From: a virus
Lineage: Duplodnaviria; Caudoviricetes
Strand: one strand, 5' to 3'
Length of the DNA stretch: 42,780 nt
Virus record (IMG/VR): IMGVR_UViG_3300030376_000768
Location: 1-42,780 of that record
How positions within the stretch are numbered: the first letter of the stretch is position 1; each line of letters starts with the position of its first letter. Positions 30,032 to 42,780 of this stretch are shown piece after piece. The position numbers and the translations under genes were made by a program. The notes under the pieces are model-generated. The model had not been told where the DNA came from and searched no databases. It saw nothing but the letters and a program-made list of their open reading frames with translations.

Positions 30032-30196
30032 TTATGACCGACCTTTCGGTTTCTTTTTGACCTTATCAAATTGTTTATCATTAGGTTTGGAATTAAAGAT
30101 TCTGTCCCATCCCTCTTTATACTTATCACTTGGTACTGCAGTTTTTAATTTTGCCCCAGTAATCTCGTAATCGTTTGTATCATTAGTCCCTGGCAT
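30032..30196 (-). CDS. 54-aa hypothetical protein
   Basis: Manual translation; KYKEGWDRIF motif; AAGGA RBS. Confidence 0.6.
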   Translation of the reverse strand: MPGTNDTNDYEITGAKLKTAVPSDKYKEGWDRIFNSKPNDKQFDKVKKKPKGRS

Positions 30197-41454: not shown

Positions 41455-41508
41455 GGTAATTTTTTAATCACCCTTCGCCCTGCGATGGGGGTGATTAAAA
41501 AATCTACC
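41455..41508 (-). promoter_or_regulatory. Long intergenic stem-loop (terminator or RNase III-type site)
   Basis: About 24-bp stem with small bulges, followed on the minus strand by TTTTCTTTTTT. Confidence 0.65.
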
Positions 41509-41656: not shown

Positions 41657-41766
41657 AATATACTCCTATATAAAAAGAAAAAAGCAATCTGCTCTAAACG
41701 GAAACTCCGAGTCACTATGCTATAGTAGAATAATGACCGACCACCATTGTGAGAAATGTGCTAGCC

Positions 41767-41791
41767 AAAAAAAAAGGGGGAATAATCCCCC
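41767..41791 (-). terminator. Intrinsic terminator after the first early gene
   Basis: Minus strand GGGGGA-TTAT-TCCCCC followed by T9. Confidence 0.85.
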
Positions 41792-42598
41792 TAATTCTTA
41801 TGATACTTTACCTGCATCTGCTGAAGTTGAAGTAGTTGCGATTTCAATTTCCGCAGGACCAGCATTTTCTTTGCGCTCCCACTCTTTCTTTCTGGTTTCG
41901 CGTAATTCTGATATAGCATCCGCAATGTTAGTCATTACTTCCCGTTGCTGTTTAGAACCTCTACCAGCTAGATAAATTGCAGAATCAAGACACTGTTCTG
42001 CAATCACAAGTAGTTGACCAACAGATTTGCCTTGTTTGATACTATTGATTGAATCAAAAAATGCATTAGTTTTTGAATTACTCATTCGTAATACTCCTAT
42101 AAAATTGGCGAAATTGCCATGATTAAAGGTTCATAGGTTATGTGTGATTGTACAATTAGTTGTGGTTATCACTTGTGATAAGCAGAAGTAATTTTACAAT
42201 CATGCATGTTCTATGAAACTATTAATCATGAGCAATTTGGACAATTTTCTAGGAGTATTACGTGATTGAATGAGTAATTCAAAAACTAATGCAACGGGTT
42301 ATTTTTTGATTCAATCAATAGTATCGTGGGTTAACAAGGGAATTCTGTTGGGCTTTACTACTTGTAATTGCATAACTGTGTCTTCGTTTCTAGCAATTTA
42401 CGACGCCTGGAAGAGGCTCTAAAGAGTTACGGAAAGTTGACTGACATGAGGACAATGCTATACAGAATTACACGATACCAGAAAGATTAGAGTGAGAAGT
42501 AAATAACATGCTGGTACGAGGACGAAATTGATTCGCAACTACTTTGACCTCAGCAAATACTTATATATAAAGTCTCATAATAATTAGGGGGATTATTC
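41780..42598. repeat. Giant imperfect inverted repeat / predicted rod-like hairpin
   Basis: 42175-42598 aligns by eye along its length to the reverse complement of 41780-42172; apex TTATCAC-TT-GTGATAA at 42166-42181. Confidence 0.95.
41798..42085 (-). CDS. 95-aa helical protein, first early gene, encoded in one arm of the giant hairpin
   Basis: AGGAG RBS, intact frame, terminator right after stop; no family recognised. Confidence 0.75.
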   Translation of the reverse strand: MSNSKTNAFFDSINSIKQGKSVGQLLVIAEQCLDSAIYLAGRGSKQQREVMTNIADAISELRETRKKEWERKENAGPAEIEIATTSTSADAGKVS

Positions 42599-42690
42599 AA
42601 ACTTATTTTAGGGATACATATTTGGATAATCTTTCTGTGGGTAAACATAAATAAATCATATACTTAGGAGAGGTATAGTCTATAGATTAT

Positions 42691-42780
42691 CATTGCAACT
42701 AATAAATATATTAGTTTTCCGTCTAGATTTATTTATTTTACCCCTACCAGGGGGTTTTGAATGCTTATCATATAGATGAA
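42691..42780 (+). repeat. Direct terminal repeat, right copy
   Basis: 89 of 90 positions identical to 1-90. Confidence 0.9.

What the first reader, a model, noticed from the sequence alone, without database searches (positions are those of the whole stretch)
41767..41800. The rod ends exactly on the terminator: possible long-range antiterminator or translation-coupled switch
Seen: the outermost match, AATTAGGGGGATTATTC at 42582-42598, corresponds to the 5' arm and loop of the terminator (GGGGGA-TTAT-TCCCCC-T9), and similarity stops there. A minus-strand TAAAAT hexamer at 42605-42610 would put +1 at about 42598, the first paired base, although the -35 is poor. Inference: the first nucleotides of the transcript can capture the terminator 800 nt downstream, so rod and terminator are mutually exclusive. 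Rod formed would mean ORF silent and read-through into downstream early genes; rod opened would mean ORF translated and termination. A random duplication has no reason to end at this boundary.
Basis: partly seen in the sequence, partly recalled or inferred. Interest (0 to 1): 0.8.

Follow-up and report, generated by a model that had tools for sequence, protein, structure and literature searches.

The report
Phage first gene's conserved mirror hairpin
In a group of viruses of ocean bacteria the first gene sits beside a non-coding mirror copy that changes in step with it, and the mismatch pattern suggests that the gene's template strand, likely as single-stranded DNA, folds into an 800-base hairpin that would let the gene be read, rather than its RNA folding to block a stop signal.

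Summary
The window is a whole Zobellviridae phage of OM43 bacteria. Bases 41780-42598 form an imperfect inverted repeat: a 95-aa first gene with ribosome-binding site and terminator, and a non-coding mirror copy. The repeat is kept in relatives down to 36% protein identity, each copy tracks its own gene, and in 9 of 9 full-length versions it ends inside the terminator hairpin. The antiterminator reading is weaker. No promoter puts +1 at 42598. The terminator still folds in phage MEP401, some relatives have shorter rods or none, and mismatches favour the opposite strand: 210 G.T-type pairs on the template strand against 49 on the coding strand, 74:1 between hairpin tip and start codon (the window itself is 10:10). 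Promoter-like signals sit at the hairpin tip in some relatives. Best reading (0.42): the template strand folds back, probably as single-stranded DNA, and the copy stands in for the missing non-template strand from promoter to terminator, like a plasmid Frpo promoter stretched over a whole gene. How that strand would become single-stranded is not shown. No Rfam family, protein family or description in print was found.

The parts
41767..41791 (-). Intrinsic terminator of the first gene (6-bp stem, 4-nt loop, U9)
   Evidence: a hairpin plus U-tract follows the stop codon in most homologous loci, L026 has it further off
41798..42085 (-). First early gene, 95 aa: three predicted helices and a low-confidence tail with a conserved C-terminal motif (STSADAGKVS-like); function unknown
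   Evidence: no PHROGs, PDB or Atlas match; no relative in genome contigs
42094..42098 (-). Shine-Dalgarno AGGAG, inside a 12-bp helix next to 24-26-bp perfect helices over the start of the gene
41780..42172 (.). Gene arm of the rod (terminator half, ORF, leader, promoter-like region)
42159..42188 (+). Conserved hairpin tip (type A): CTTG loop, 6-bp stem and three G.G mismatches spaced every 3 nt on the plus strand (C.C on the coding strand)
   Evidence: replaced by a two-hairpin Y-shaped tip (type B) in L022 and L043/L037
42193..42222 (+). Weak promoter-like sequence in the copy arm (TTTACA, TG, AACTAT); the matching position holds TTGACA-16-TACTAT in MEP402
   Evidence: weak in the window itself (score 5.3, rank 5 along the arm)
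42175..42598 (+). Non-coding mirror copy of the gene unit, about 85% identical over aligned bases, frameshifted by 6-8-nt insertions that are kept in place in relatives
42582..42598 (+). Outer 17-bp helix arm matching the terminator's first arm and loop (the finding)
42599..42616 (+). Decayed remnant of the terminator's second arm and U-tract; holds the TAAAAT hexamer (42605-42610, minus strand)
   Evidence: (I1)
42741..42754 (.). G+C-rich CCCC..GGGGG motif, likely near the outer end of the direct terminal repeat; 156 nt from the rod's end
   Evidence: PMC6775973 passages
41733..41741 (-). Conserved GTCGGTCAT motif just downstream of the terminator; candidate phage-specific promoter element for the next genes
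   Evidence: second exact copy at 30035-30042

Best explanation
The phage keeps a non-coding mirror copy of its first transcription unit, and the template (window plus) strand, likely as single-stranded DNA at the early end of the genome, is predicted to fold back into an 800-base hairpin in which the copy would stand in for the missing non-template strand from promoter to terminator. Shown: the repeat, its covariation, its end inside the terminator, and mismatches and tip loops that favour the template strand, most strongly between tip and start codon. Inferred: host RNA polymerase starts just below the tip; the copy re-anneals behind the polymerase and frees the mRNA for ribosomes; it ends about 10 nt before the seventh U because that is where a non-template strand is last needed to free the terminator's first arm, so the boundary would help termination rather than block it. 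Not shown: that this strand is ever single-stranded (5'-to-3' resection of the entering end or a lagging-strand gap are the candidates; its 3' end lies at this terminus), and what the protein does.
For: Mismatches over 11 loci: G.T on the template strand 210, on the coding strand 49; G.G 49 vs C.C 4; T.T 81 vs A.A 40. Tip to start codon 74:1, last third of the ORF 43:21; same direction with three alignment settings. Changes at 4-fold sites of two neighbouring genes predict a coding-strand G.T share of 0.71; observed 0.20, 46 of 229. The 130-195 nt round the tip fold better on the template strand in 16 of 16 loci. Template-strand tip loops are CTTG, TTTA, GCAA, T-rich or GC-GAA-GC, recalled as stable DNA loops. 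MEP402 has no gene-length rod but keeps the tip as a short hairpin whose copy arm carries TTGACA-16-TG-TACTAT (score 10.5) and which forms as one long hairpin only on the template strand with RNA parameters. A tip-proximal site is the best promoter of the gene arm in 4 of 12 loci. Rod end 9-13 nt before U7 in 8 of 9 loci (hand count). Frpo promoters work this way on plasmid single strands (PMC11541004, passages).
Against: The window (10:10), L050 (4:5) and L043 (6:9) show no G.T bias, so 8 of 11 loci carry it, and loci are related (about three deep lineages of full rods). The same spectrum also fits a coding-strand RNA selected for real interruptions, or biased repair. The mutation control is small (48 changes, 5 G sites). 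Promoter matches are weak in the window (2.5 and 5.3) and use an approximate E. coli matrix; related phages also lack top-scoring promoters at this end, so absence upstream is weak evidence. L044 has a GCGA loop on the coding strand. MEP401's rod ends 18 nt before U7. The phages are described as dsDNA (PMC10580990, section 7) and no source of a single strand is shown. CUUG and GCAA are also RNA loops.
Confidence: 0.42

Rival explanations
1. One reading: a minus-strand transcript starts at or above 42598; its 420-nt leader pairs with the ribosome-binding site, ORF and first terminator arm, silencing the gene and letting polymerase read through. Mismatches are chosen to be real breaks so that the RNA avoids long perfect helices.
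For: Terminator suppressed at equilibrium in 8 of 9 rods, by 2.8-15.6 kcal/mol; 163 Watson-Crick pairs and no transition mismatch beyond the stop codon; copy's second terminator arm broken so that it cannot self-fold; bulged bases on the coding strand are A/C-rich, 135 of 209; no helix above 25 bp on the coding strand. Fold-back silencing of full-length mRNA is known for aapA1 (PMC5416894, abstract).
Against: No promoter at the rod's end; MEP401 terminator folds; partial or absent rods in 9 of 24 loci; G.U almost absent on this strand near the tip; a conserved motif right after the terminator may start downstream genes without read-through.
Confidence: 0.2
2. The plus strand folds as DNA, but for replication or end processing: it turns a single-stranded 3' tail into duplex up to the inner edge of the terminal repeat, or primes synthesis as a hairpin; the gene is simply the sequence that was copied.
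For: Same strand bias; rod ends 156-164 nt from the G+C terminal motif in 5 of the 7 full rods where the motif was found, close to cobavirus repeats of 159-173 bp (PMC6775973); Y-shaped tips recall viral terminal hairpins (recalled).
Against: Distance is 226 and 238 nt in L043 and MEP401; the true repeat ends are not mapped; it does not explain the stop at the terminator; MEP402, ICP2, SIO1, the Manatee Spring phage and the first 8 kb of ICBM1/2 have no such rod.
Confidence: 0.15
3. The folding molecule is plus-strand RNA: either one antisense transcript that folds into a rod, or a short RNA made from the copy arm that pairs with the gene's template strand or with an antisense RNA as a decoy.
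For: G.U about 10% of pairs on this strand, as in ordinary RNA helices; U.U favoured over A.A; MEP402's copy-arm promoter would, on duplex DNA, drive an RNA through a G+C-rich structured stretch.
Against: No conserved plus-strand promoter firing into the rod; a transcript from the copy-arm promoter would not contain the tip, where the bias is strongest; no Rfam match.
Confidence: 0.15
4. No function: a hairpin-primed duplication kept alike by template switching, with strand-biased mutation or repair.
For: Template switching at imperfect palindromes is known (recalled); it can give joint change of both arms; some lineages lack the rod.
Against: Insertions stay in place while flanks are updated; conserved G.G ladder and swapped tip modules; fixed end at the terminator; about 1% of a small genome kept over deep divergence; mutation control points the other way.
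Confidence: 0.08

Closest known systems
Frpo / ssi single-strand DNA promoters of conjugative plasmids (PMC11541004, passages read)
   Same: Imperfect hairpin on the template strand just ahead of the earliest gene; -35/-10-like boxes in the stem (clear in MEP402, weak in the window).
   Different: In a dsDNA phage, no conjugative strand known; the hairpin covers the whole gene to its terminator; sequence similarity to Frpo not tested.
Fold-back-silenced type I toxin mRNAs such as aapA1 (PMC5416894, abstract read) and hok (recalled)
   Same: Upstream sequence able to pair with the ribosome-binding site and the 3' end of a small gene.
   Different: Pairing here is one continuous 400-bp rod; soluble helical 95-aa protein, not a short membrane peptide; no antitoxin RNA found; stability favours the other strand.
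Deltavirus and Obelisk rod RNAs (recalled; search listing only)
   Same: Rod with about 80% pairing, ORF on one side, start near the tip as in deltaviruses.
   Different: Linear part of a DNA phage genome; no ribozyme or Rfam match; gene also occurs without the rod.
N4 virion-polymerase hairpin promoters and T7-type end-processing hairpins (recalled)
   Same: DNA hairpin near the early end of a podovirus genome; small stable loops.
   Different: Those are tens of bases long; no phage RNA polymerase was noticed among this genome's ORFs (not searched for specifically).
Inverted repeats reported for roseophage SIO1 (PMC6775973, passages)
   Same: Same phage family.
   Different: SIO1 repeats are 98-100% identical, far apart and thought to be misassembly; no local rod.

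Membership tests
Frpo/ssi single-strand promoter | Hairpin favoured on the template strand, upstream of the earliest gene | tested here: met
Frpo/ssi single-strand promoter | Near-consensus -35 and -10 in the stem | tested here: inconclusive
   MEP402 10.5; best site of the gene arm in 4 of 12 loci; window 2.5 and 5.3
Frpo/ssi single-strand promoter | Lies on a strand delivered single-stranded (plasmid leading region) | tested here: not met
   dsDNA Zobellviridae phage; any transient single strand not testable here
Frpo/ssi single-strand promoter | Active on single-stranded and silent on double-stranded DNA | not testable with these tools
   needs in vitro transcription
RNA antiterminator / attenuator | Upstream RNA outcompetes the terminator hairpin | tested here: met
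   8 of 9 rods in folding models, not MEP401
RNA antiterminator / attenuator | Promoter upstream of the antiterminator sequence | tested here: inconclusive
   no site above 7.3 upstream of nine rods; RNA data too thin
RNA antiterminator / attenuator | Structure selected on the transcribed strand (G.U tolerated, A.C avoided) | tested here: not met
   49 G.U vs 210 A.C; window 10:10
Type I toxin-antitoxin mRNA | Small hydrophobic toxin plus separate antisense RNA | tested here: not met
   95-aa charged three-helix protein; no Rfam match
Viroid-like / deltavirus / Obelisk RNA | Circular RNA with ribozymes or Oblin/HDAg protein | tested here: not met
   no Rfam ribozyme; no fold match; fixed place in phage genomes
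Zobellviridae, MEP401-type OM43 phage | Terminase and early-gene order like MEP401/MEP402 | tested here: met
   TerL 94.5-94.9% identical; same neighbours

The most novel reading that the evidence does not exclude
A double-stranded DNA phage carries a self-duplexing gene: when the entering genome end is made single-stranded, for example by host nuclease attack, the surviving strand folds back and rebuilds a complete promoter-gene-terminator duplex, so that damage to the genome end itself switches on the first protein, which may then activate the GTCGGTCAT sites of the next genes.
Probability: 0.25. Interest if true: 0.92.

Novelty: new variant of a known kind. Interest (0 to 1): 0.78.

Why it matters
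Long inverted repeats are normally unstable and rare in small phage genomes, yet this lineage keeps a gene-length one and updates it as the gene changes. If the template strand folds, single-strand promoters exist in dsDNA phages and can cover a whole gene, which gives a new answer to how the first phage gene is expressed. MEP401 (full rod) and MEP402 (short hairpin) are cultured on the same host, so the models can be compared directly.

Tried and rejected
Rfam: nothing at gathering score in the window end (8 weak matches, all far below it), MEP402 start or 13 loci; ARAGORN 0 genes in 15 loci, so a tmRNA idea was dropped. Protein function: PHROGs 0, BFVD one uncharacterised phage protein at E 2.8e-4, PDB none, Atlas none, genome contigs none of 247 candidates. 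Public runs: 20 listed, one RNA run with share 0.04; four laid, all contigs; the RNA run covered only 41859-42101 at depth 2, and no joints were listed: no information on strand or ends. Programmed inversion between the arms: the tip has the same orientation in every locus that carries it, so not pursued. Assembly artefact: rejected, the repeat is imperfect, is covered by contigs of other runs and is present in a cultured phage. Family-wide feature: no gene-length rod in MEP402 (ends only), Manatee Spring phage, ICP2, SIO1 or the first 8 kb of ICBM1/2. Seven of 38 pattern matches were chance hits (short frames) and were dropped; seven more had too little upstream flank for the rod census, though L031, L037 and L044 were used for tip analyses.

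Full report
Context. The window is a complete phage genome with a 90-base terminal repeat. Its terminase is 94.5-94.9% identical to those of Methylophilales phages MEP401 and MEP402, Zobellviridae that infect OM43 bacteria. Early genes run on the minus strand from the 42780 end. The finding lies at the end of the first of them, a 95-aa ORF at 41798-42085.

Observation. The terminator and the 17-base match at 42582-42598 are as described; the match also covers 2 nt of the second arm. It is the outer helix of an inverted repeat centred at 42173/42174, with about 334 matches, 51 mismatches and 50 gap positions. Folding gives z = -28.9 (minus RNA) and -35.4 (plus DNA) against 20 shuffles. The right arm is a frameshifted copy of leader, ribosome-binding site, ORF and half the terminator. 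Weak similarity continues to 42616, with the G run of the second terminator arm broken; L050, L024, L039 and L048 show the same. The proposed -10 hexamer lies in this remnant.

Conservation. A pattern for the protein's conserved C-terminus gave 38 loci. Seven were chance matches and seven lacked enough upstream DNA. Of the other 24, 15 carry a full rod, 7 a partial one (clear in L026, weak in the L023, L040 and L054 types: scores 96, 56, 43, 45 against shuffle maxima of 23-28) and 2 none. Many are near-duplicates; nine distinct full rods, the window and MEP401 included, fall into about three deep lineages. MEP401's protein is 36% identical, yet its rod is intact. Each of the nine copy arms matches its own ORF best. 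At 340 window pairs, six relatives show 179 double changes that keep a Watson-Crick pair, against 29-45 when partners are slid by 1-2 columns; where the gene side changed the copy changed in 250 of 328 cases, elsewhere in 288 of 1592 (these count sequences, not events). Insertions of 5-8 nt near the start codon stay in place while their flanks change. All nine full rods end inside the terminator hairpin.

The antiterminator model. A minus-strand RNA starting at or above 42595 cannot form the terminator (penalty 13.3 kcal/mol); starting at or below 42586 it does. The same holds in 8 of 9 rods, though by only 2.8 and 4.0 kcal/mol in two, and in MEP401 the terminator forms with P = 0.96. No promoter supports the required start: with an approximate, recalled E. 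coli matrix the best sites upstream of nine rods score 5.0-7.3, the nearest ending 13 nt upstream (L039), whereas this phage's clear promoters score 12.9-13.6. This is weak evidence, since cobaviruses and ICP2 score only 9-10 at this end. A motif GTCGGTCAT follows the terminator in most relatives, in MEP402 too, and recurs at 30035-30042; it may start the next genes without read-through (inference; one-mismatch copies are not enriched, 13 against 8.4 expected).

Which strand folds. In strand-neutral alignments of 11 loci, mismatches that are G.T on the template (window plus) strand number 210 and on the coding strand 49; G.G 49 against C.C 4, T.T 81 against A.A 40, G.A 99 against C.T 63. The bias is 74:1 from tip to start codon and 43:21 in the last third of the ORF, in the same direction with three scoring schemes. 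Eight of 11 loci show it; the window (10:10), L050 and L043 do not, although the window has 15 G.G/T.T against 1 C.C/A.A. Mismatches are even over codon positions (123, 134, 121), so most arose in the copy. Changes at four-fold sites of two neighbouring genes predict a coding-strand G.T share of 0.71, against 0.20 observed, but rest on 48 changes. The region round the tip folds better on the template strand in 16 of 16 loci with DNA parameters, by only 0.5 kcal/mol in L044. The spectrum is symmetric in logic: stability selected on the template strand, or real interruptions selected on the coding strand. The tip speaks for the first: two interchangeable modules, a G.G ladder and a Y-shaped pair of small hairpins, are swapped between close relatives (L050 against L022, MEP401 against L043), and their template-strand loops are CTTG, TTTA, GCAA, T-rich or GC-GAA-GC, which I recall as stable DNA loops. 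L044's GCGA loop on the coding strand points the other way.

Promoter at the tip. TTGACA or TTGATA sits at the foot of the tip on the gene arm in L022, L043, L044, L023 and L054, and a tip-proximal site is the best of the arm in 4 of 12 loci scored. The window's sites are weak (2.5 and 5.3). MEP402, which lacks the gene-length rod, keeps the tip as a short hairpin whose copy arm reads TTGACA-16-TG-TACTAT (10.5). On duplex DNA that site points away from the early genes; on a folded template strand it would point into them. With RNA parameters the long hairpin formed only on the template strand; with DNA parameters the template strand led by 3 kcal/mol.

Mechanism. I read the element as a template strand that folds back and uses the copy as its non-template partner. 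Frpo promoters of plasmids adopt a structure that mimics duplex DNA and are read by host polymerase from a single strand (PMC11541004, passages). Extending the duplex over the gene would free the mRNA from the template, and the copy ends 9-13 nt before the seventh U in 8 of 9 rods (18 in MEP401; hand count, taking one search's end for L043), about where the upstream edge of a paused polymerase's bubble lies (recalled geometry). The boundary would then aid termination. The missing step is the single strand. The plus strand has its 3' end at this terminus, and the rod ends 156-164 nt from the G+C terminal motif in five of seven rods where it was found (226 and 238 in the other two), close to the 159-173-bp repeats of cobaviruses (PMC6775973); the true ends of this genome are not mapped.

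Protein. Three helices (residues 4-17, 22-40, 45-74) and a low-confidence tail; 18 and 26 relatives in two searches, none with a function; the C-terminal motif is kept with synonymous changes, so at protein level. No family or fold match.

Novelty. No Rfam match. The paper on MEP401/402 has 0 occurrences of 'terminal repeat', 'inverted', 'hairpin', 'non-coding', 'promoter' or 'terminator' in its main text (abstract and section 7 read; supplements not read and they could bear on this). Searches listed no description of such an element; I saw listings and abstract openings only, apart from passages of PMC6775973 and PMC11541004 and the abstract of PMC5416894. Subscription journals are mostly outside the library. 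Earlier notes of this scan hold nothing on this genome or look-alikes; three notes on other phages describe hairpin-rich or rod-like early regions and are unchecked leads.

Noticed in passing
window 41733-41741 and 30035-30042 (minus); most related loci: GTCGGTCAT motif after the terminator in most relatives and ahead of other genes, often followed by a TA-rich hexamer; candidate phage-specific promoter element.
   Followed up: partly
L007 1-260 with the last bases of L008 (MEP402): G+C-rich structured stretch, annotated as a 71-aa gene, with the same hairpin tip and a near-consensus promoter on the opposite strand; may be a non-coding RNA or a short form of the element.
   Followed up: partly
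window 41798-41830 (minus): C-terminal peptide STSADAGKV(S/A) is kept in otherwise very different homologues; possible binding tail or degradation tag.
   Followed up: partly
window 41459-41503: Hairpin with 15-bp perfect arms and a branched top between early genes, also seen in L041; possible RNase III site or two-way terminator.
   Followed up: no
L057 about 470-570 and L058 about 345-445 (cobaviruses ICBM2, ICBM1): A conserved non-coding stretch of about 100 nt ahead of the first gene, without an Rfam match at gathering score.
   Followed up: no
L009 35434-35629 and 1717-1915: Repetitive self-complementary stretches in the Manatee Spring phage, unlike the rod.
   Followed up: no
window 77 and 42767: The 90-base terminal repeat differs at one base between its two copies.
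   Followed up: no
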